Virus record (IMG/VR): IMGVR_UViG_2563366866_000006 | Strand: one strand, 5' to 3' | Length of the DNA: 11,387 bases | Source of the DNA: a virus | Taxonomy: Duplodnaviria > Heunggongvirae > Uroviricota > Caudoviricetes | Part shown: piece by piece, positions 387 to 10,714 of the stretch | How the letters are laid out: each line of letters begins with the position of its first letter | Position numbering within the stretch: position 1 is the stretch's first letter | Position numbers and translations under genes: made by a program | Notes under the pieces: generated by a model | The model's database searches: none | What the model was told of the DNA's origin: nothing | What the model saw: only the letters and a program-made list of their open reading frames with translations

Positions 387-415
387 AGCCAGCCTCCCCA
401 AAGGCTGGTTTTTTT
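387..415 (+). terminator. IS200 left-end hairpin with rho-independent-terminator shape (stem 389-394/403-408, loop tccccaaa, T-run 409-415)
   Basis: ccagcc...ggctgg is a perfect inverted repeat followed by seven T residues, read directly from the sequence. In IS200 this structure is known to block read-in transcription. Confidence 0.7.
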
Positions 416-425
416 GTGCACAGAA

Positions 426-448
426 AACCCCCAGCTAGGCTGGGGGTT
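426..448 (+). promoter_or_regulatory. IS200 tnpA 5' UTR stem-loop (aacccccagc-tag-gctgggggtt), probable translational control structure
   Basis: A perfect 10-bp stem with a 3-nt loop, read directly. Its C-rich arm is complementary to the AAGGGGG Shine-Dalgarno sequence just upstream of the tnpA start at 559. Confidence 0.55.
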
Positions 449-558
449 CCGGAAAGCTTTCAGCTTTGAGCCAGTTATTAAAACCCCTTTTGATTTGTTA
501 AAACACCTTGCGGTCTGGCAACTGCAAGTGTCAAACAAGAAATCAAAAGGGGGTCCCA

Positions 559-1017
559 ATGGGGAACGAAAAGAGCTTAGCGCACACCCGATGGAACTGT
601 AAATATCACATAGTTTTTGCGCCAAAATACCGAAGACAGGTGTTCTACAGAGAGAAGCGTAGAGCAATAGGCAGTATTTTGAGAAAGCTGTGTGAGTGGA
701 AAAGCGTACGGATTCTGGAAGCTGAATGCTGTGCAGATCATATCCATATGCTTGTGGAGATCCCGCCTAAAATGAGCGTATCCGGGTTTATGGGATATCT
801 GAAAGGGAAAAGCAGTCTGATGCTTTACGAGCAGTTTGGTGATTTGAAATTCAAATACAGGAACAGGGAGTTCTGGTGCAGAGGGTACTACGTCGATACA
901 GTGGGTAAGAACACGGCGAAGATACAGGATTACATAAAGCACCAGCTTGAAGAGGATAAAATGGGAGAGCAGTTATCGATTCCCTATCCGGGCAGCCCGT
1001 TTACGGGCCGTAAGTAA
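559..1017 (+). CDS. tnpA: IS200 transposase TnpA (HuH Y1 transposase, about 152 aa)
   Basis: Translation MGNEKSLAHTRWNCKYHIVFAPKYRR...HIHMLVEIPP...YIKHQLEEDK carries the HuH motif (HIH) and the catalytic Tyr region, and matches my memory of Salmonella/E. coli IS200 TnpA almost exactly. The start is placed at the internal ATG at 559, preceded by AAGGGGG, rather than at the ORF-track start at 508. Confidence 0.93.
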   Translation: MGNEKSLAHTRWNCKYHIVFAPKYRRQVFYREKRRAIGSILRKLCEWKSVRILEAECCADHIHMLVEIPPKMSVSGFMGYLKGKSSLMLYEQFGDLKFKYRNREFWCRGYYVDTVGKNTAKIQDYIKHQLEEDKMGEQLSIPYPGSPFTGRK

Positions 1018-1090
1018 CGAAGTTGGATGCAAATGTCAGATCGTGTGCGCCTGTTAGGGCGCGGCTGGTAAGAGAGCCTTATAGGCGCAT

Positions 1091-1127
1091 TTGAAAAACC
1101 TCCGGCTATGCCGGAGGATATTTATTT
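1091..1127. terminator. Bidirectional intrinsic terminator hairpin (cctccggc-tat-gccggagg), mainly serving the minus-strand lipocalin gene
   Basis: Perfect 8-bp GC-rich stem at 1099-1106/1110-1117. On the minus strand it is followed by TTTTTCAA, about 40 nt downstream of the lipocalin stop. On the plus strand it is followed by a weaker ATATTTATTT. Confidence 0.6.
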
Positions 1128-1155: not shown

Positions 1156-1680
1156 TTATTGTTTGACCCATAATAGTTCATTGACATTGAATCCCAATTT
1201 TTGAGCAGTACGCACATAGTCTGCTTTTACATTATCTGGAATAGTTGGAGTCCGTGCCAGAATCCATAGGTATTCTCTGTTCGGACCACTGACAAGAGCA
1301 TACTTATACTCATCATCCAGTTTGATTACATTATAGCCACCATAGAAGGGGCCAAAAAACGAAACCTTCAACGCTGCAGTTGTATTATCTCCTGTAAAGT
1401 ATGCTTTACCTTCGCTCTCGCTCCATTTGTTTTTCGTTGGGTCATATCCACGATTAAGTACACTAATCCCTCCGTCGTTCCGTTTCCCATAAGTGGCGCT
1501 GACCTGTTCCAGACCACGTTCAAATCGGTTCTCAAGCCGAGCTATTTCATACCATTTTCCGAGGTAGCGGTTGGTGTCAAAATTTGTAATCGGCTGCACA
1601 CCTTTAGGTGGTGTCGGGGCCTTACATGCTATCAGAGTGAAAGAGAGTGCAATGCCAGTCAACACAGGCCATAACTTCAT
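1156..1680 (-). CDS. Outer-membrane lipocalin lipoprotein, Blc family
   Basis: 174 aa. Signal peptide with a lipobox (FTLIAC, Cys19). Conserved lipocalin core YLGKWYEIARLENRFERGL...KVSFFGPFYGGYNVI...YLWILARTP closely parallels E. coli Blc. ATG at 1678-1680 with an AGGA about 8 nt upstream. Confidence 0.9.
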   Translation of the reverse strand: MKLWPVLTGIALSFTLIACKAPTPPKGVQPITNFDTNRYLGKWYEIARLENRFERGLEQVSATYGKRNDGGISVLNRGYDPTKNKWSESEGKAYFTGDNTTAALKVSFFGPFYGGYNVIKLDDEYKYALVSGPNREYLWILARTPTIPDNVKADYVRTAQKLGFNVNELLWVKQ

Positions 1681-1872
1681 AATATATCCTGTACTTTTGA
1701 TAGTTGAGAGTAAGTATTAAAGATAGATGATTACTACCGATCACCTAAAGAACTTTCCTACTATATTAGGAATAGTCCATAACAAAAAAATTGTCAGTGA
1801 TGACGGCAGAAAGGCAGTTTAGGTCGTGTACTACACTGTTAACCTGTTAATGAATTAGTCAAGGGGTAGGCA

Positions 1873-2832
1873 ATGATAAAAAAACCTGTCGTTGGGATCA
1901 GTGGTTGTTTGGCCGGTTCTTCTGTCCGTTTTGATGGTGGTCACAAAAGAGCTAGCTTTTTAATGGACAAATTACTGGAATGGGTAACATTCAAACCAGT
2001 ATGTCCGGAAATGGCTATAGGGCTTCCAGTTCCGCGTCCTGCTCTACGTCTTGTTCGCTCGGCGCAAGGAAATATACGGATGTGTTTCAGCCACGACCAG
2101 AATGAGGATGTTACAGAGAAAATGACAGAGTTTAGTCGTTCTTATCTTGACAAATTAAAGGATGTATCGGGATTTGTGGTTTGTGCAAAATCTCCTAGCT
2201 GTGGTATGGAACGCGTGCGTGTATATGATGAAAATGGTAATCGTGGTCGTAAAGATGGAGTGGGACTATTTACGAGCACGTTGATGGAAAGGTTTTCCTG
2301 GCTACCGGTTGAAGAGGATGGGCGACTACATGATCCAGTGCTTCGTGAAAACTTTGTTGAAAGAGTATTTGCTTTACATGAGCTCAATCATCTTTATAAA
2401 GCGAAATTATCAAGAAGGGAATTATTAGCTTTTCATAGCCGTTATAAGCTTCAGTTGTTGGCGCATAGCCAGGCCGGTTATAAAGAGATGGGGCCATTTG
2501 TGGCTGCAATACATGAGTGGGCAGACCTTGAATCATACTTTGAGGTGTATCGTGAGAAGCTGATGGCGATTCTCAGAAAACCTGCATCACGTAAAAATCA
2601 CACGAATGTGCTGATGCATATACAGGGATATTTTAGTAACTGCTTAAATACACGTCAGCGTAAAGAGTTGAGCGATGTTATACTTAACTATCGAGCTGGC
2701 ACGCTACCTCTTCTTGCGCCATTAACTTTGCTGAAGCATTACTTGGCAGAGTATCCTGATGATTATTTGCTTATACAGAATTACTTCCACCCCTATCCTG
2801 ATGAACTGGCTCTAAGACTCTTGGTGAACTAG
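1873..2832 (+). CDS. DUF523 (TudS-like [4Fe-4S] thio-nucleobase desulfidase domain) fused to DUF1722; YbgA-family protein
   Basis: 319 aa. N-terminal half has three Cys in the spacing expected for TudS cluster ligands (GISGCLAG Cys12, CPEM Cys44, CAKSPSCG Cys105), plus a fourth Cys at 110. C-terminal half resembles the helical DUF1722 domain. RBS AAGGGG lies 6-7 nt upstream of the ATG. Confidence 0.8.
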   Translation: MIKKPVVGISGCLAGSSVRFDGGHKRASFLMDKLLEWVTFKPVCPEMAIGLPVPRPALRLVRSAQGNIRMCFSHDQNEDVTEKMTEFSRSYLDKLKDVSGFVVCAKSPSCGMERVRVYDENGNRGRKDGVGLFTSTLMERFSWLPVEEDGRLHDPVLRENFVERVFALHELNHLYKAKLSRRELLAFHSRYKLQLLAHSQAGYKEMGPFVAAIHEWADLESYFEVYREKLMAILRKPASRKNHTNVLMHIQGYFSNCLNTRQRKELSDVILNYRAGTLPLLAPLTLLKHYLAEYPDDYLLIQNYFHPYPDELALRLLVN

Positions 2833-3150: not shown

Positions 3151-3882
3151 ATGCCATGCATATGTTCTATCATTTTGGTTTTGAACTCGTTTGATATCCG
3201 GCTTGGTAAAGAAAAAATCTCTCTAAAAAAAGGAAGTGTTGTTGCTATAGAATACAATTTAAAAGTTTTCTTTTCTTCAAATAAAGATAATATAATGATC
3301 GTGGATATTGAAGAGAAAACAGTTAATGACTTCTTTAAAAACAATACACTCTCACCTTTTTCTGTAAGAAGATTTTATTCAGCATACTTGATAGTAAACT
3401 GTACAGACTATTCATTGTTAAAGAACTTGATAGGTTGCTTGAATTGTGATGGTGAAACTACGGCTGTAGTTAAAAATTCAATATTATTTGCATGTCTTGC
3501 TATTTTATCCTCGGAAAAAATGTTTCAGAGTTTTTTGTTTGGGTGTCTTAATAGTTTAGGAAGCAAAGTTAAGGCTATTATTCACTCGGACATATCTGCA
3601 GCATGGAGACTTTGTGATATTTCTTCAAGACTATGTCTGAGTGAAAGTTTGTTAAAAAGAAAACTAAAACACGAAGGCTTATCATTTAGCAAATTAATTC
3701 TTGAAGAACGAATGGTGATGGCTGAAAGGTTATTAAGCTACAATTTCTATCCTGTTGGGAAAGTTGCTAAAATATGTGGTTATGAAAGCGCGTCATATTT
3801 TATAAGTGTTTTCAGAAGATATTTTGGTGTTCCCCCCCATGAATATTCATCAAGATTTTTTTTAGAAAAAGGCAAGATGTAA
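3151..3882 (+). CDS. AraC/XylS-family transcriptional regulator (AppY/GadX/PatE-like), horizontally acquired
   Basis: C-terminal AraC-type double helix-turn-helix (...LCLSESLLKRKLKHEGLSFSKLILEERMVMAERLL...VGKVAKICGYESASYFISVFRRYFGVPPHEY). The gene and its 310-bp upstream region are strikingly AT-rich. ATG at 3151 with AGGTGG 5 nt upstream is preferred over the in-frame GTG at 3142 used by the ORF track. Confidence 0.85.
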   Translation: MPCICSIILVLNSFDIRLGKEKISLKKGSVVAIEYNLKVFFSSNKDNIMIVDIEEKTVNDFFKNNTLSPFSVRRFYSAYLIVNCTDYSLLKNLIGCLNCDGETTAVVKNSILFACLAILSSEKMFQSFLFGCLNSLGSKVKAIIHSDISAAWRLCDISSRLCLSESLLKRKLKHEGLSFSKLILEERMVMAERLLSYNFYPVGKVAKICGYESASYFISVFRRYFGVPPHEYSSRFFLEKGKM

Positions 3883-3943
3883 CGTGATGCGTTTTGATGA
3901 TTTTGTAATTTTCATATTTGATGATTATATGATGCTTTCAGCT

Positions 3944-3973
3944 ACGCCAGAATAATCGCTGGCGTTTTTCTTT
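3944..3973 (+). terminator. Rho-independent terminator downstream of the AraC-family gene, upstream of the holin (possibly serving as tR')
   Basis: Stem acgccag (3944-3950) / ctggcgt (3959-3965) with loop aataatcg, followed by TTTTTCTTTT. Confidence 0.6.
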
Positions 3974-4049
3974 TCTAATGTAACTTCTGTATCTTTCCCT
4001 CTTTCATTCCAAACCGTGTACACCATCCGTTATTCGCGGAGGTGAGGCT

Positions 4050-4265
4050 ATGAAATCCATGGACAAGTTAACAACGGGCATTGCCTACGGCACCTCTGCA
4101 GGCAGTGCTGGCTACTGGTTTTTACAGTGGCTTGATCAGGTCAGTCCGTCACAGTGGGCGGCGATTGGAGTGCTTGGAAGCCTTGTGTTGGGTTTTCTCA
4201 CTTATCTGACAAACCTTTATTTCAAGATTAAAGAAGATAAGCGTAAGGCTGCGAGAGGTGAATAA
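4050..4265 (+). CDS. S: Class II holin, phage 21 S21-type pinholin with dual-start motif (Met1/Met4)
   Basis: 71 aa, [53 protein letters not shown]..., matching S21/EssD as I recall them. Two transmembrane segments. The M-K-S-M start gives the antiholin (71 aa) and holin (68 aa) forms. Strong RBS GGAGGTGAGG. Confidence 0.95.
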
Positions 4266-4762
4266 TGTCGCCATCATTACGCAAGGCTGTAGCAGCTGCT
4301 ATTGGTGGTGGGGCTGTTGCCATAGCGTCTGTGCTCATCACTGGTCCGAGTGGTGACGATGGTCTGGAAGGTGTCAGCTACATACCATATAAAGATATTG
4401 TTGGTGTATGGACTGTATGTCACGGGCATACAGGAAAAGACATCATGCTCGGTAAAACGTATACCAAAGCAGAATGCAAAGCACTCTTGAATAAAGACCT
4501 TGCCACTGTCGCCAGACAAATTAACCCGTACATCAAAGTCGATATACCGGAAACAACGCGCGGCGCTCTTTACTCATTCGTTTACAACGTGGGTGCTGGC
4601 AATTTCAGAACATCGACGCTTCTTCGCAAAATAAACCAGGGCGATATCAAAGGCGCATGTGATCAGTTACGTCGCTGGACATATGCTGGCGGTAAGCAAT
4701 GGAAAGGTCTCATGACTCGTCGTGAGATTGAGCGTGAAATCTGTTTGTGGGGTCAGCAATGA
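4265..4762 (+). CDS. R: SAR (signal-anchor-release) endolysin, T4-lysozyme-like (GH24), phage 21 R21-type
   Basis: 165 aa. Gly/Ala-rich N-terminal SAR domain ([20 protein letters not shown]). Catalytic triad at the canonical positions E35, D44, T50. Start overlaps the holin stop. Confidence 0.95.
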
Positions 4763-5220
4763 ACAGAGTAACCGCGATTATCTCCGCTCTGGTTATCTGC
4801 ATCATCGTCTGCCTGTCATGGGCTGTTAATCATTACCGTGATAACGCCATTACCTACAAAGCCCAGCGCGACAAAAATGCCAGAGAACTGAAGCTGGCGA
4901 ACGCGGCAATTACTGACATGCAGATGCGTCAGCGTGATGTTGCTGCGCTCGATGCAAAATACACGAAGGAGTTAGCTGATGCGAAAGCTGAAAATGATGC
5001 TCTGCGTGATGATGTTGCCGCTGGTCGTCGTCGGTTGCACATCAAAGCAGTCTGTCAGTCAGTGCGTGAAGCCACCACCGCCTCCGGCGTGGATAATGCA
5101 GCCTCCCCCCGACTGGCAGACACCGCTGAACGGGATTATTTCACCCTCAGAGAGAGGCTGATCACGATGCAAAAACAACTGGAAGGAACCCAGAAGTATA
5201 TTAATGAGCAGTGCAGATAG
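4759..5220 (+). CDS. Rz: Rz inner-membrane spanin (i-spanin)
   Basis: 153 aa from the ATG at 4759 ([21 protein letters not shown]...), with an N-terminal transmembrane helix and coiled-coil periplasmic domain. ATGA overlap with the endolysin stop. The ORF-track start at 4747 is a GTG four codons upstream. Confidence 0.9.
4979..5161 (+). CDS. Rz1: Rz1 outer-membrane lipoprotein spanin (o-spanin), embedded in the +1 frame of Rz
   Basis: 60 aa, [24 protein letters not shown]... with lipobox VVGC and a proline-rich stretch ([16 protein letters not shown]). Lies entirely inside Rz, as in lambda and phage 21. Confidence 0.9.
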
Positions 5221-5223
5221 AGC

Positions 5224-5241
5224 TGCCCATATCGATGGGCA
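5224..5241. terminator. Hairpin between the convergent Rz and bor genes (tgcccat-atcg-atgggca), possible bidirectional terminator
   Basis: Perfect 7-bp inverted repeat read directly. No strong T-run on either side, so terminator activity is uncertain. Confidence 0.3.
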
Positions 5242-5251
5242 ACTCATGCAA

Positions 5252-5545
5252 TTATTGTGAGCAATAGACACGCGCTTCCAGCGGAGTATAAATGCCTAAA
5301 GTAATAAAACCGAGCAATCCATTTACGAATGTTTGCTGGGTTTCTGTTTTAACAACATTTTCTGCGCCGCCACAAATTTTGGCTGCATCAACAGTTTTCT
5401 CCTGTCCAATTCCCGAAACGAAGAAGTGATGGGTGATGGTTTCCTTTGGTGTTACTGCTGTCGGTTTGTTTCCAACAGTAAACGTCTGTTGAGCACATCC
5501 TGTAATAAGCATTGCCAGAGCGGCAGAAAACAACATTTTTTTCAT
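5252..5545 (-). CDS. bor: Bor lipoprotein (serum-resistance, lysogenic-conversion protein)
   Basis: 97 aa from the ATG at 5543-5545 (MKKMLFSAALAMLITGCAQQTFTV...GLLGFITLGIYTPLEARVYCSQ), near-identical to lambda Bor as I recall it. Lipobox ITGC. The ORF-track start at 5593 is a longer upstream extension that I reject. Confidence 0.92.
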   Translation of the reverse strand: MKKMLFSAALAMLITGCAQQTFTVGNKPTAVTPKETITHHFFVSGIGQEKTVDAAKICGGAENVVKTETQQTFVNGLLGFITLGIYTPLEARVYCSQ

Positions 5546-5904
5546 CTTATTATCCTGCATTGTTAAAAACGGCAGAATCCTATGTGACAACAATTAAACG
5601 ATAGTTAAATGGATTGATGAAAATTAAAACTATATAGGTGGATGCTCAGCCTATTGGAGGAGGGGGGCACTCAGAATCCTGTGGAATGAAATAAACCGCT
5701 CTTTCTGTCCATTACCCTTTTAGCTGCGCTGTATCGTCGCCGTATTCCCGCATTAACCATGACCGTAGCCCGACGGGGAATTCCTTCTGCGTGAGTGTGC
5801 GGGAATAATCAAAAACGATGCACACCGGGTTTTACTGTGCTGACAGACGCAGGGTTACCCTCATAGTCGCTTTTCCGGTGCGATGGTGGAAGAAACCGGG
5901 ATGT

Positions 5905-6099
5905 TTATTCATCATCACTTTGGATTGATGTACATGCTCTCTTTTCTGACGTTAGTCTCCGACGGCAGGCTTCAATGACCCAGGCTGAGAAATTCCCAGA
6001 CCCTTTTTGCTCAAGAGCGATGTTAATTTGTTCAATCATTTGGTTAGGAAAGCGGATGTTGCGGGTTGTTGTTCTGCGGGTTCTGTTCTTAGTTGACAT
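5905..6099 (-). CDS. ylcI: Small YlcI-like (DUF3950) protein, probably a ribbon-helix-helix DNA-binding protein with an arginine-rich N-terminus
   Basis: 64 aa, MSTKNRTRRTTTRNIRFPNQMIEQINIALEQKGSGNFSAWVIEACRRRL.... The pattern (beta-strand RNIRF, then two helices) fits an RHH fold. A homologue sits just upstream of the Nu1 homologue in DLP12 by my recollection. Weak RBS. Confidence 0.65.
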   Translation of the reverse strand: MSTKNRTRRTTTRNIRFPNQMIEQINIALEQKGSGNFSAWVIEACRRRLTSEKRACTSIQSDDE

Positions 6100-6245
6100 G
6101 AGGTTGCCCCGTATTCAGTGTCGCTGATTTGTATTGTCTGAAGTTGTTTTTACGTTAAGTTGATGCAGATCAATTAATACGATACCTGCGTCATAATTGA
6201 TTATTTGACGTGGTTTGATGGCGTAGATGCACGTTGTGACATGTA

Positions 6246-6487
6246 GATGATAATTATTATCATTTTGTGGGTCCTTTCCGGCGATCCGACAGGTTACGGG
6301 GCGGCGACCTCGCGGGTTTTCGCTATTTATGAAAATTTTCCGGTTTAAGGTGTTTCCGTTCTTCTTCGTCGTAACTTAATGTATTTATTTAAAATACCCC
6401 CTGAAAAGAAAGGAAACGACAGGTGCTGAAAGCGAGCTTTTTGGCCTCTGTCGTTTCCTTTCTCTGTTTTTGTCCGTGGAATGAGCA
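6246..6487 (+). other. cos: Lambda-type cos site: cosQ (about 6246-6297), cosN with the 12-nt cohesive end GGGCGGCGACCT at 6298-6309, and cosB with Nu1-binding R elements and an IHF site
   Basis: ...gtgggtcctttccggcgatccgacaggttacg | gggcggcgacct cgcgggttttcgc... matches the lambda right and left termini as I recall them. R3 is at about 6351-6368 (tgtttccgttcttcttcg), R2 inverted at about 6407-6423 (agaaaggaaacgacagg), R1 at about 6448-6464 (ctgtcgtttcctttctc), with an AT-rich IHF-like site between R3 and R2. Nu1 starts 190 bp after cosN, as in lambda. Confidence 0.9.
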
Positions 6488-7007
6488 ATGGAAGTCAACA
6501 AAAAGCAGCTGGCTGACATTTTCGGTGCGAGTATCCGTACCATTCAGAACTGGCAGGAACAGGGAATGCCCGTTCTGCGAGGCGGTGGCAAGGGTAATGA
6601 GGTGCTTTATGACTCTGCCGCCGTCATAAAATGGTATGCCGAAAGGGATTCTGAAATTGAGAACGAAAAGCTGCGCCGGGAGGTTGAAGAACTGCGGCAG
6701 GCCAGCGAGGCAGATCTCCAGCCAGGAACTATTGAGTACGAACGCCATCGACTTACGCGTGCGCAGGCCGACGCACAGGAACTGAAGAATGCCAGAGACT
6801 CCGCTGAAGTGGTGGAAACCGCATTCTGTACTTTCGTGTTGTCGCGGATCGCAGGTGAAATTGCCAGTATTCTCGACGGGCTCCCCCTGTCGGTGCAGCG
6901 GCGTTTTCCGGAACTGGAAAACCGACATGTTGATTTCCTGAAACGGGATATCATCAAAGCCATGAACAAAGCAGCCGCGCTGGATGAACTGATACCGGGG
7001 TTGCTGA

Positions 7008-7033
<26 letters not shown>
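6488..7033 (+). CDS. nu1: Terminase small subunit Nu1
   Basis: 181 aa, MEVNKKQLADIFGASIRTIQNWQEQGMPVLRGGGKGNEVLYDSAAVIKWYAERD..., essentially the lambda Nu1 sequence from memory, with an N-terminal winged-HTH. Confidence 0.97.

Positions 7034-10714
<3,681 letters not shown>

What the first reader, a model, noticed from the sequence alone, without database searches (positions are those of the whole stretch)
1156..1872. Second-copy Blc-type lipocalin lipoprotein in the prophage, divergently transcribed from the DUF523-DUF1722 gene
Blc is normally a chromosomal, stress-induced outer-membrane lipoprotein that binds lysophospholipids. A prophage copy is a plausible envelope-fitness or serum-survival moron, in the same spirit as bor 3.5 kb downstream. 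It shares a 192-bp divergent control region with the TudS-like gene, which contains a tandem direct repeat (ctgttaac/ctgttaat at 1836-1850) about 25 bp upstream of the plus-strand start codon. This suggests the pair is regulated as a unit and is independent of phage late transcription, since the lipocalin gene is antisense to it.
Basis: partly seen in the sequence, partly recalled or inferred. Interest (0 to 1): 0.4.

Follow-up and report, generated by a model that had tools for sequence, protein, structure and literature searches.

The report
Prophage lipocalin gene, an already-reported moron
This is a real, intact outer-membrane lipocalin gene carried as cargo by a lambda-like prophage; it is common in E. 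coli and already reported in the literature, and the one new point is that it and its neighbour come from a stress-gene cluster of other enterobacteria that has lost its repressor gene.

Summary
The gene and its layout are real. Window 1156-1680 (-) encodes a 174-aa Blc-family lipoprotein with lipobox LIAC. It lies 192 bp from, and divergent to, a DUF523-DUF1722 gene at 1873-2832 (+). Both sit in the Q-to-holin cargo slot of a lambdoid prophage.

It is not new. The protein is identical to gp65 of Escherichia phage 1H12. A 2020 paper lists blc as a moron in over half of gut lambda phages. About one in five complete E. coli genomes carries it, alongside the chromosomal blc. The neighbour is identical to RudS_vir, a tRNA 4-thiouridine desulfidase tested in 2024.

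What I add:
- The gene is not a copy of E. coli blc (59.8% aa identity). It belongs to a separate clade (72-82% identity).
- Most members of that clade sit as lipocalin <> MlrA-like MerR regulator, followed either by RudS (sometimes after a transthyretin-like gene) or by a lipid-modification operon.
- The phage pair is that cluster without the regulator. Window 1681-1777 still aligns to the lipocalin-MerR intergenic region.

Only the lipocalin is antisense to late transcription; RudS is co-oriented with it. Function and expression remain untested.

The parts
1156..1680 (-). Lipocalin lipoprotein gene, 174 aa. It is a Blc-family paralogue of the MerR/RudS-linked clade.
   Evidence: ORF. Pfam Lipocalin_2 E 2.2e-43. 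NCBIfam Blc 315.5 bits against a 267-bit cut-off. PDB Blc E 2.6e-69. Identical to phage 1H12 gp65. Clade placement. dN/dS 0.07-0.11.
1624..1680 (-). Codons 1-19: lipoprotein signal peptide with lipobox LIAC. Cys19 is the acylated first residue of the mature protein. Lys at +2 predicts outer-membrane sorting.
   Evidence: Regex match to [LVI][ASTVI][GAS]C at residues 16-19. The +2 sorting rule is established knowledge, not tested here.
1681..1777 (.). Lipocalin-proximal half of the intergenic region. It is homologous to the lipocalin-MerR intergenic region of chromosomal relatives.
   Evidence: The blastn alignment with L006 and L014 runs from inside the lipocalin gene to window 1777, 68% identity over 279 nt, E 1e-33. 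Multiple alignment.
1711..1719 (-). Candidate -10 element of the lipocalin promoter, TAATACTTA on the minus strand. It aligns with the conserved CTACACTTA box of chromosomal relatives and resembles the sigma-S -10 consensus.
   Evidence: Alignment column conservation. The resemblance to the sigma-S consensus rests on my own knowledge. The generic sigma-70 scan found no minus-strand promoter in the intergenic region. Inference only.
1755..1772 (.). Near-palindrome TTCCTACTA|TATTAGGAA containing TATATT. It aligns with the conserved ATTCGTAGTATATTG box that precedes the MerR gene in relatives, so it may be the former MerR promoter, now facing RudS.
   Evidence: Inverted repeat I4. Alignment. Inference.
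1778..1872 (+). RudS-proximal half of the intergenic region. Its origin is unresolved.
   Evidence: The box occurs once in the window, and once each about 40 nt upstream of the lipocalin ATG in most of the MerR-linked relatives. The dyad scores 9/12 here and 8/12 in the majority allele; a conserved TGGACA-N12-TGTGTA lies at the same place in 7 of 8 chromosomal clusters. The octamers are not significant and not conserved.
1873..2832 (+). RudS (TudS/DUF523 fused to DUF1722), 319 aa. It is a tRNA 4-thiouridine desulfidase.
   Evidence: Pfam 2-thiour_desulf and DUF1722. Protein identical to 1H12 gp66 = RudS_vir, and Cys12, Cys44 and Cys110 are present. Activity published in PMC11417400.
3151..3882 (+). 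AraC/YdeO/GadX-like regulator gene, 243 aa, very AT-rich. It is the third gene of the cargo module and probably a separate acquisition.
   Evidence: Pfam HTH_18 and HTH_AraC. Best NCBIfam hit YdeO, far below its cut-off. GC 27-33% against 42-44% for the other two genes. 52%-identical paralogues occur in lambdoid phage records that were not among the lipocalin hits. dN/dS 0.25.
387..410 (+). Terminator-like hairpin with a T-run about 100 nt downstream of Q. It is a candidate tR' of the late operon.
   Evidence: Terminator scan. Sequence. Its role is inferred from lambda-type architecture.
416..1120 (+). IS200-family insertion (tnpA 508-1017, STnc490 sRNA 426-549) between tR' and the 3' end of the lipocalin gene. 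It is absent from most relatives. Its terminal hairpin at 1099-1117 acts as a bidirectional terminator-like site facing the lipocalin gene.
   Evidence: Breakpoints from alignment to L001. Pfam Y1_Tnp. Rfam RF01405, 146 bits. Terminator scan.

Best explanation
The gene encodes an outer-membrane-anchored, periplasm-facing lipocalin lipoprotein. It is carried as a moron (lysogenic-conversion cargo) in the Q-to-holin slot of a lambda-like prophage.

SHOWN
- It is an intact Blc-family lipoprotein gene under purifying selection.
- It is antisense to the late operon.
- It is present in viable phages and in about 20% of complete E. coli genomes, in addition to the chromosomal blc.
- It belongs to a paralogous clade whose chromosomal members mostly sit divergently from an MlrA-like MerR regulator. 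That regulator heads either RudS (sometimes after a transthyretin-like gene) or a SnoaL-SDR-FAD oxidase-DUF1365-CFA synthase-DUF2878 lipid-modification operon.
- The phage pair lipocalin <> RudS is that cluster with the regulator gene missing.

INFERRED
- The two genes were captured together from such a cluster.
- Because relatives of the missing regulator act as repressors (Salmonella MlrB/MlrA on orf319; class II LitR in Pseudomonas), the phage copies are probably expressed without that control. The lipocalin would use a retained sigma-S/sigma-70-type promoter about 30 nt upstream of its start. RudS would use a relic promoter and, after induction, late read-through as well.
- In the lysogen the lipocalin binds lysophospholipid-like, fatty-acid-like or damaged lipids at the inner face of the outer membrane, as Blc does. 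It would help envelope maintenance under stationary-phase or (photo)oxidative stress.
- RudS independently removes the near-UV-sensitive s4U from tRNA.
For: FAMILY AND LIPOPROTEIN FEATURES
-.

PROPHAGE SLOT AND COMPLETE PROPHAGE
-.

PREVALENCE AND SECOND COPY
- 1042 of 5426 genomes carry the gene; the sampled prophage-type records show two places.
- The intergenic region is found in 1137 of 5426 genomes.
- The chromosomal blc context is frd-ampC-blc-sugE.

VIABLE PHAGES
- Twelve Escherichia phage records carry it, eleven with an identical protein.
- The module is 99.86% identical to phage 1H12.

PARALOGUE STATUS
- NJ tree: the canonical Blc clade has bootstrap 100. The phage copy falls in the other clade. 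Buttiauxella izardii carries both types.

CLUSTER CONTEXT
- Of 13 distinct relatives at 70% identity or more, nine have a MerR neighbour and eight have RudS within 2 kb. None of the ten enterobacterial loci at 56-63% identity has either.
- The regulator is an MlrA paralogue: 193-208 bits on the MlrA model, below the 417-bit cut-off, with CarH as the next hit.

LOSS OF THE REGULATOR
- Intergenic homology runs up to window 1777.
- No MerR or transthyretin-like remnant was found in the window or in prophages L001, L002, L004, L098 and L099.

SELECTION
- dN/dS is 0.07-0.11 for the lipocalin and 0.11 for RudS.

LITERATURE
- blc as a lambda moron: PMC6969025.
- RudS_vir activity, and E. coli lacking RudS: PMC11417400.
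- MlrB and MlrA repress orf319: bioRxiv 10.1101/2021.03.09.434593.
- Class II LitR is a repressor with operator TGTACA-N12-TGTACA: PMC9758184.
- A lipocalin is the last gene of a sigma-E/ChrR-controlled lipid-modification operon in Stenotrophomonas: PMC11832516.
Against: - There are no expression data. The generic sigma-70 scan finds no minus-strand promoter in the intergenic region.
- The two boxes conserved in the chromosomal lipocalin promoters (ATGAAG and TGCACTACAC) have diverged in the phage copy.
- The ligand and phenotype of Blc itself are unsettled. Lysophospholipid, fatty acid and haem have all been proposed (PMC8177097).
- No phenotype has been reported for the phage gene.
- Three relatives of the same clade (Kosakonia and two Symbiopectobacterium) have neither MerR nor RudS nearby.
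- The actual donor cluster was not found; the best relatives are only 82% (lipocalin) and 76% (RudS) identical.
- A functional link between the lipocalin and RudS is inferred from synteny only.
Confidence: 0.65

Rival explanations
1. It is a surface or envelope remodelling factor that serves the prophage, for example by superinfection exclusion or receptor masking, in the way other prophage lipoproteins such as Cor or Llp block receptors. On this reading it is not a stress-protection lipid binder.
For: It sits in the cargo slot near bor/iss and faces away from late transcription. The published survey found lambda morons to be mostly membrane proteins, including sie.
Against: The protein is 72-82% identical to chromosomal homologues embedded in stress clusters. 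It is under strong purifying rather than diversifying selection. It keeps the whole Blc profile end to end. Blc faces the periplasm rather than the surface (established knowledge).
Confidence: 0.1
2. The lipocalin and RudS are still controlled as one unit. The host's own MlrA, or the adjacent AraC-like regulator, would act on the shared 192-bp region.
For: In Salmonella the chromosomal MlrA also represses orf319/RudS. A dyad resembling the MlrA/LitR operator (TGTACT-N12-TGTTAA, 9/12) lies 22 nt upstream of the RudS start, where relatives have a conserved TGGACA-N12-TGTGTA. The AraC-like gene accompanies the pair in all 12 phage records and in the prophage loci inspected.
Against: The dyad scores only 8/12 in the majority allele. 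A 9/12 match is expected by chance in roughly 7% of 192-bp stretches (my calculation), and three occur in the 11.4-kb window. No such dyad lies near the lipocalin promoter, either here or in relatives. The AraC-like gene has a very different base composition, and paralogues occur in phage records that were not among the lipocalin hits, which suggests a separate moron.
Confidence: 0.15
3. It is a passenger with no current function, carried along with RudS or the AraC-like gene.
For: No phenotype is known. In one E. coli genome the neighbouring RudS is cut by IS3, showing that the module can decay.
Against: The ORF is intact in all alleles examined. dN/dS is 0.07-0.11 at dS of about 0.19. In the IS3-disrupted locus the lipocalin is the gene that stays intact. 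It is retained in about 20% of E. coli genomes across two diverged alleles.
Confidence: 0.07

Closest known systems
E. coli Blc (outer membrane lipoprotein, bacterial lipocalin; PDB 1QWD, 2ACO, 3MBT)
   Same: Same family and length, and the profile matches end to end. Same lipoprotein signal with Cys at the cleavage site. The expected fold and lipid-binding cavity are the same.
   Different: Only 59.8% aa and about 68% nt identity. It falls in a different, well-separated clade. It is not in the frd-ampC-blc-sugE context. The promoter region is unrelated to that locus.
blc moron of gut lambda-like coliphages (Escherichia phage 1H12 gp65; Mathieu et al. 2020, PMC6969025)
   Same: Identical protein. 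The three-gene module is 99.86% identical in DNA and sits in the same slot between Q and holin.
   Different: This window additionally has an IS200 inserted between tR' and the 3' end of the gene. The paper treats it simply as 'blc' and does not note the paralogue status or the MerR-cluster origin.
Enterobacterial lipocalin <> MlrA-like MerR - (transthyretin-like) - RudS clusters (Serratia rubidaea, Leclercia tamurae, Enterobacter nematophilus, Buttiauxella izardii, Raoultella)
   Same: The lipocalin is 74-82% identical and RudS 70-75% identical. The two genes have the same divergent orientation. The lipocalin-side intergenic sequence is homologous.
   Different: The regulator gene, and the transthyretin-like gene where present, are missing in the phage. 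The conserved dyad upstream of RudS is degenerate. An AT-rich AraC-like gene has been added downstream.
Salmonella SPI-2 mlrB(orf242)-orf319 pair, and class II LitR light regulons of Pseudomonas
   Same: Same kind of regulator-target pair: an MlrA/LitR-like MerR repressor next to RudS.
   Different: No lipocalin is mentioned in the Salmonella study (zero occurrences of the word). The phage lacks the repressor altogether.
bor/iss of lambdoid phages
   Same: A prophage-borne outer-membrane lipoprotein gene transcribed against the late operon. It is present in the same window at 5252-5593.
   Different: Unrelated fold and family. bor has a documented serum-resistance phenotype, whereas the lipocalin has none.

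Membership tests
Blc / bacterial lipocalin (NCBIfam NF007786, Pfam PF08212) | Full-length profile match above the curated cut-off | tested here: met
   315.5 bits against a 267-bit cut-off, residues 1-174 on profile 1-174/176. PF08212 E 2.2e-43.
Blc / bacterial lipocalin (NCBIfam NF007786, Pfam PF08212) | Lipoprotein signal peptide with lipobox Cys and no Asp at +2 (outer-membrane sorting) | tested here: met
   LIAC at residues 16-19 and Lys20. Lipidation and localisation themselves were not tested.
Blc / bacterial lipocalin (NCBIfam NF007786, Pfam PF08212) | Lipocalin beta-barrel fold like solved Blc | tested here: met
   Shown by sequence only: E 2.6e-69 to 3MBT over residues 20-174, without gaps. 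No structure was predicted.
Blc / bacterial lipocalin (NCBIfam NF007786, Pfam PF08212) | Orthology to E. coli blc (same clade, frd-ampC-blc-sugE neighbourhood) | tested here: not met
   59.8% identity. It lies outside the canonical clade, which has bootstrap 100. The context differs.
Blc / bacterial lipocalin (NCBIfam NF007786, Pfam PF08212) | Binds lysophospholipids or fatty acids; rpoS-dependent stationary-phase expression | not testable with these tools
   Only a -10-like TAATACTTA at 1711-1719 (-), aligned with CTACACTTA in relatives.
Phage moron / lysogenic-conversion gene | Lies inside a prophage between functional modules and is dispensable (absent from related phages) | tested here: met
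   It lies between Q and holin. Only 12 Escherichia phage records carry it, and 21% of E. coli genomes. The literature lists it as a moron.
Phage moron / lysogenic-conversion gene | Autonomous transcription unit: own promoter and terminator, orientation independent of phage operons | tested here: inconclusive
   Opposite orientation is confirmed. A terminator-like hairpin faces it at 1117-1099, but that belongs to the IS200. No consensus promoter was found by scan. Only an alignment-based -10 candidate is available.
Phage moron / lysogenic-conversion gene | Base composition differs from the phage backbone | tested here: met
   GC is 40-44% across 1200-2800, against 52-63% in the packaging and head genes.
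MlrA-like MerR-controlled lipocalin/RudS cluster | Lipocalin of the linked clade, divergent from the operon that contains RudS | tested here: met
MlrA-like MerR-controlled lipocalin/RudS cluster | MlrA-like MerR regulator gene adjacent to the lipocalin | tested here: not met
   tblastn with the L006 regulator finds nothing better than E 0.3 in the window or in five related prophage loci.
MlrA-like MerR-controlled lipocalin/RudS cluster | Conserved dyad (TGGACA-N12-TGTGTA type) upstream of RudS | tested here: inconclusive
   A 9/12 match to TGTACA-N12-TGTACA at 1827-1850 in this allele and 8/12 in the majority allele. Seven of eight chromosomal clusters have it.

The most novel reading that the evidence does not exclude
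The lipocalin and RudS together form a regulator-stripped fragment of an enterobacterial MlrB/LitR-type near-UV and photo-oxidative stress regulon. Lambdoid phages have spread this fragment into about a fifth of E. coli. Losing the repressor would make the pair constitutive, or place it under sigma-S or host MlrA control. That would give E. coli, which has no RudS of its own, a tRNA s4U eraser plus a partner outer-membrane lipid-binding protein, and the two would jointly raise tolerance to UVA or oxidative membrane and tRNA damage outside the gut.
Probability: 0.25. Interest if true: 0.55.

Novelty: already known. Interest (0 to 1): 0.27.

Why it matters
An identical gene is annotated in sequenced phages and has been counted as a common lambda moron.

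The useful residue is a corrected framing for anyone who studies it. It is not a spare copy of blc. It is a different paralogue that travelled with the tRNA s4U desulfidase RudS out of a MerR-repressed stress cluster and left the repressor behind.

That framing gives concrete, cheap experiments: expression in lysogens, MlrA dependence, and UVA, oxidative and envelope phenotypes of single and double deletions. The cargo module is present in roughly one in five E. coli genomes.

Tried and rejected
- TANDEM OCTAMER AS A REGULATORY SITE: rejected. It matches 6-8% of shuffles and is not conserved in the majority allele.
- LEXA BOX OVER CTGT...: checked by eye. The second half-site is missing, so rejected.
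- KNOWN RNA FAMILIES IN THE INTERGENIC REGION: Rfam finds only the IS200 STnc490 element elsewhere in the window.
- GENERIC PROMOTER SCAN: the count is no higher than in shuffles. Nothing lies on the minus strand in the intergenic region, and only a weak plus-strand site at 1704-1731.
- REMNANTS OF THE MerR OR TRANSTHYRETIN-LIKE GENES in the 192 bp or elsewhere in the prophage: none found.
- THE SALMONELLA mlrB-orf319 PROMOTER: I tried to fetch it for a direct operator comparison through P0161. That locus turned out to be a different, ttcA-adjacent and probably prophage-derived RudS copy, so it was not informative.
- THE P. PUTIDA LitR PAPER (PMC7515241) is not held. I used PMC9758184 for the operator consensus instead.
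- A 23-nt direct repeat, 1768-1790 and 1862-1884 at 74%, was considered as a sign of duplication. It is driven mostly by an A-run and does not extend, so it was not pursued.
- No structure prediction was run. About 60% identity to solved Blc structures makes the fold uncontroversial.
Full report
WHAT IS THERE

- The window is the late region of a lambda-like prophage.
- In order it holds:
  - the 3' part of an antiterminator Q gene (61-288);
  - a terminator-like hairpin (387-410);
  - an IS200-family insertion (about 416-1120);
  - the lipocalin gene (1156-1680, minus strand);
  - a 192-bp intergenic region;
  - a DUF523-DUF1722 gene (1873-2832, plus);
  - an AT-rich AraC-like gene (3151-3882, plus);
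  - then holin, lysozyme, Rz, bor/iss (minus), nu1, terminase, W and portal.
- An almost identical stretch (99.86% over 10.3 kb, without the IS200) lies in a complete prophage next to icd in E. coli NZ_CP030768.

THE GENE ITSELF

- The 174-aa product matches Pfam Lipocalin_2 at E 2.2e-43.
- It scores 315.5 bits on NCBIfam 'outer membrane lipoprotein Blc' (cut-off 267), end to end.
- It aligns without gaps to solved E. coli Blc structures at E 2.6e-69.
- It has a lipoprotein signal with lipobox LIAC (Cys19) followed by Lys. By the established +2 rule this predicts outer-membrane anchoring.
- Between the two main prophage alleles dN/dS is 0.07-0.11 at dS of about 0.19. The gene is therefore maintained by selection.

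HOW COMMON IT IS, AND WHETHER IT IS A SECOND COPY

- A blastn search of 5426 complete E. coli genomes finds the prophage-type gene (at least 80% coverage, 90-100% identity) in 1042 genomes.
- A 60-80%-identity match is the best match in 4533 records; in the sampled rows it is annotated blc.
- The six sampled prophage-type records each have two places.
- The chromosomal gene lies in frd-ampC-blc-sugE.
- The 192-bp intergenic region occurs in 1137 genomes. This window's allele is the minority (110 genomes at 99% or more). About 984 carry an allele roughly 91% identical, seen for example in a DLP12-type defective prophage.

IT IS ALREADY KNOWN

- Twelve Escherichia phage records carry it. Eleven have an identical protein annotated 'Lipocalin Blc'.
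- The three-gene module is 99.86% identical to Escherichia phage 1H12, and the lipocalin and DUF523-DUF1722 proteins are identical to gp65 and gp66.
- Mathieu et al. 2020 (PMC6969025) list blc among morons present in more than half of their gut lambda phages.
- Jamontas et al. 2024 (PMC11417400) cloned gp66 as 'RudS_vir'. They showed that RudS enzymes remove the 4-thiouridine modification from tRNA, and noted that E. coli has no RudS of its own.

WHAT KIND OF LIPOCALIN IT IS

- The closest non-phage proteins are 72-82% identical (Leclercia, Enterobacter nematophilus, Cedecea, Buttiauxella, Serratia rubidaea, Klebsiella and others). E. coli's own Blc is 59.8% identical.
- In a neighbour-joining tree the canonical Blc group has bootstrap 100 and excludes the phage protein. 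That group holds E. coli, Salmonella, Citrobacter and the blaCMY-2-linked plasmid copy.
- Buttiauxella izardii carries one gene of each type.
- Gene neighbourhoods separate the two groups cleanly.
  - Nine of 13 distinct relatives at 70% identity or more are divergent from an MlrA-like MerR regulator. In five of these the regulator is followed by RudS, sometimes after a transthyretin-like hydroxyisourate hydrolase homologue. In two it heads a SnoaL-SDR-FAD oxidase-DUF1365-CFA synthase-DUF2878 operon.
  - None of the ten enterobacterial loci at 56-63% identity has MerR or RudS nearby.
- The regulator scores 193-208 bits on the MlrA model (cut-off 417), with CarH as the next hit. It is therefore an MlrA/LitR-like paralogue.

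ORIGIN OF THE PAIR

- DNA homology between the window and the 82% relatives runs from inside the lipocalin gene out to window 1777. That covers nearly the whole lipocalin-MerR intergenic region. Homology resumes at or shortly before the RudS start.
- No trace of the regulator or the transthyretin-like gene is found in the window or in five related prophage loci.
- The simplest reading is that lipocalin and RudS were captured together from such a cluster and the regulator was deleted.
- One chromosomal relative (Huaxiibacter) also lacks the regulator. It is the only one of eight clusters without the conserved dyad upstream of RudS.

THE CONTROL REGION

- They are no better than 6-8% of shuffles.
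- In the majority allele the first copy reads CAGTTTAT, and this is the most variable patch of the region.
- Three other features are better conserved:
  1. TAATACTTA on the lipocalin strand (1711-1719). It aligns with a strongly conserved CTACACTTA in the chromosomal lipocalin promoters. From my own knowledge it resembles a sigma-S-type -10 element.
  2. A TATATT-containing near-palindrome at 1755-1772. It aligns with the conserved box in front of the MerR gene.
  3. The box G(T/C)ACTACAC. It lies about 40 nt upstream of the lipocalin start in most of the MerR-linked relatives, but upstream of RudS in the phage.
- Relatives have a conserved TGGACA-N12-TGTGTA dyad just upstream of RudS. It resembles the published LitR operator consensus (PMC9758184) and the MlrA-like operator reported at Salmonella orf319.
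- The phage has only a 9/12 match (this allele) or 8/12 match (majority allele) at that place. I treat this as suggestive at best.
- No Rfam family and no convincing consensus promoter lies in the region.

RELATION TO LATE TRANSCRIPTION

- The region after Q has promoter-like sequence and a hairpin with a T-run at 387-410, as expected for pR'/tR'.
- RudS and the AraC-like gene lie between this and the lysis genes, on the same strand. Q-modified late transcripts should therefore cross them, in the way stx genes are expressed in Stx phages (inference from architecture).
- Only the lipocalin is antisense.
- In this window the IS200 end supplies a terminator-like hairpin with a T-run facing the lipocalin gene (1117-1099). 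In IS-free relatives the tR' hairpin has no T-run on that strand.

THE THIRD GENE

- The AraC-like gene is far more AT-rich (27-33% GC) than the other two (42-44%).
- It evolves faster, with dN/dS 0.25.
- It has 52%-identical paralogues in lambdoid phage records (mEp332, PhiR70_1, ev099) that were not among the lipocalin hits.
- I regard it as a separate moron of the YdeO/GadX/AppY kind, although it travels with the pair in every phage and prophage locus inspected.

MECHANISM

- Shown: family, lipoprotein features, cargo status, paralogue clade, synteny and loss of the regulator.
- Inferred:
  - expression in the lysogen from a retained promoter, free of the lost repressor;
  - binding of lysophospholipid-like or damaged lipids at the inner face of the outer membrane, as proposed for Blc;
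  - a shared stress context with RudS. RudS genes are often in light-responsive operons. A lipocalin is part of a sigma-E/ChrR lipid-modification operon in Stenotrophomonas.
- Rivals are a phage-serving exclusion role, continued joint control by host MlrA or the AraC-like protein, and a functionless passenger. Current evidence favours each of these less, but expression and phenotype data would be needed to exclude them.

VERDICT

It also over-reads the control region.
- The finding is already in the literature and databases. Interest is low to moderate.

Noticed in passing
window 416-1120 (tnpA 508-1017; Rfam STnc490 at 426-549): An IS200-family element is inserted directly after the tR'-like terminator, between Q and the cargo module. 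Most related prophages lack it. It puts a strong hairpin (1099-1117) between the late promoter and the lysis genes, and may affect late read-through.
   Followed up: partly
window 3151-3882: An AraC/YdeO/GadX-like regulator gene with only 27-33% GC. 52%-identical paralogues occur in other lambdoid phages (mEp332, PhiR70_1, ev099). It may be a prophage regulator of host acid or stress genes, like AppY or PatE. Its targets are unknown.
   Followed up: partly
L016 (JARKOR010000135.1, labelled Candidatus Nanosynbacter MAG): A 2.1-kb contig in a Nanosynbacter (Saccharibacteria) genome bin carries this E. coli prophage lipocalin (97% aa) and the start of RudS. It is almost certainly a binning contaminant.
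   Followed up: no
L099 (E. coli strain C, NZ_CP029371.1, locus 4476-6532): In this genome RudS is truncated by an IS3 element and the rest of the late region is replaced. The lipocalin gene stays intact.
   Followed up: no
L019 (Huaxiibacter chinensis, locus 6183-8522): This chromosomal cluster has the lipocalin divergent from transthyretin-like and RudS genes, but no MerR regulator. It is also the only cluster without the conserved dyad upstream of RudS. It is an independent example of regulator loss.
   Followed up: partly
L003 (Morganella phage IME1369_01, locus 5001-5516): A more distant Blc-like lipoprotein gene (51% identity) sits between the lysis genes and the small terminase of an unrelated Morganella phage, without RudS. 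Phages seem to have picked up lipocalins more than once.
   Followed up: no
L100 (Salmonella enterica, JAEKZB010000008.1, locus 4001-4960): A RudS gene 74% identical to the phage one lies alone between ttcA and a DUF1367 phage-type gene. This is a typical Rac-type prophage site, which suggests another phage-borne RudS lineage.
   Followed up: no
L098 (E. coli NZ_AP022098.1, locus 3766-6525): The majority allele of the module sits in a DLP12-type defective prophage (ybcK, emrE, ybcN, rusA, Q, essD, rrrD). From my own knowledge, this is the slot that nmpC occupies in E. coli K-12.
   Followed up: no
window 1768-1790 and 1862-1884: A 23-nt direct repeat (74% identity) links the middle of the intergenic region to the RudS ribosome-binding site and first codons. 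It is mostly an A-run and probably chance.
   Followed up: partly
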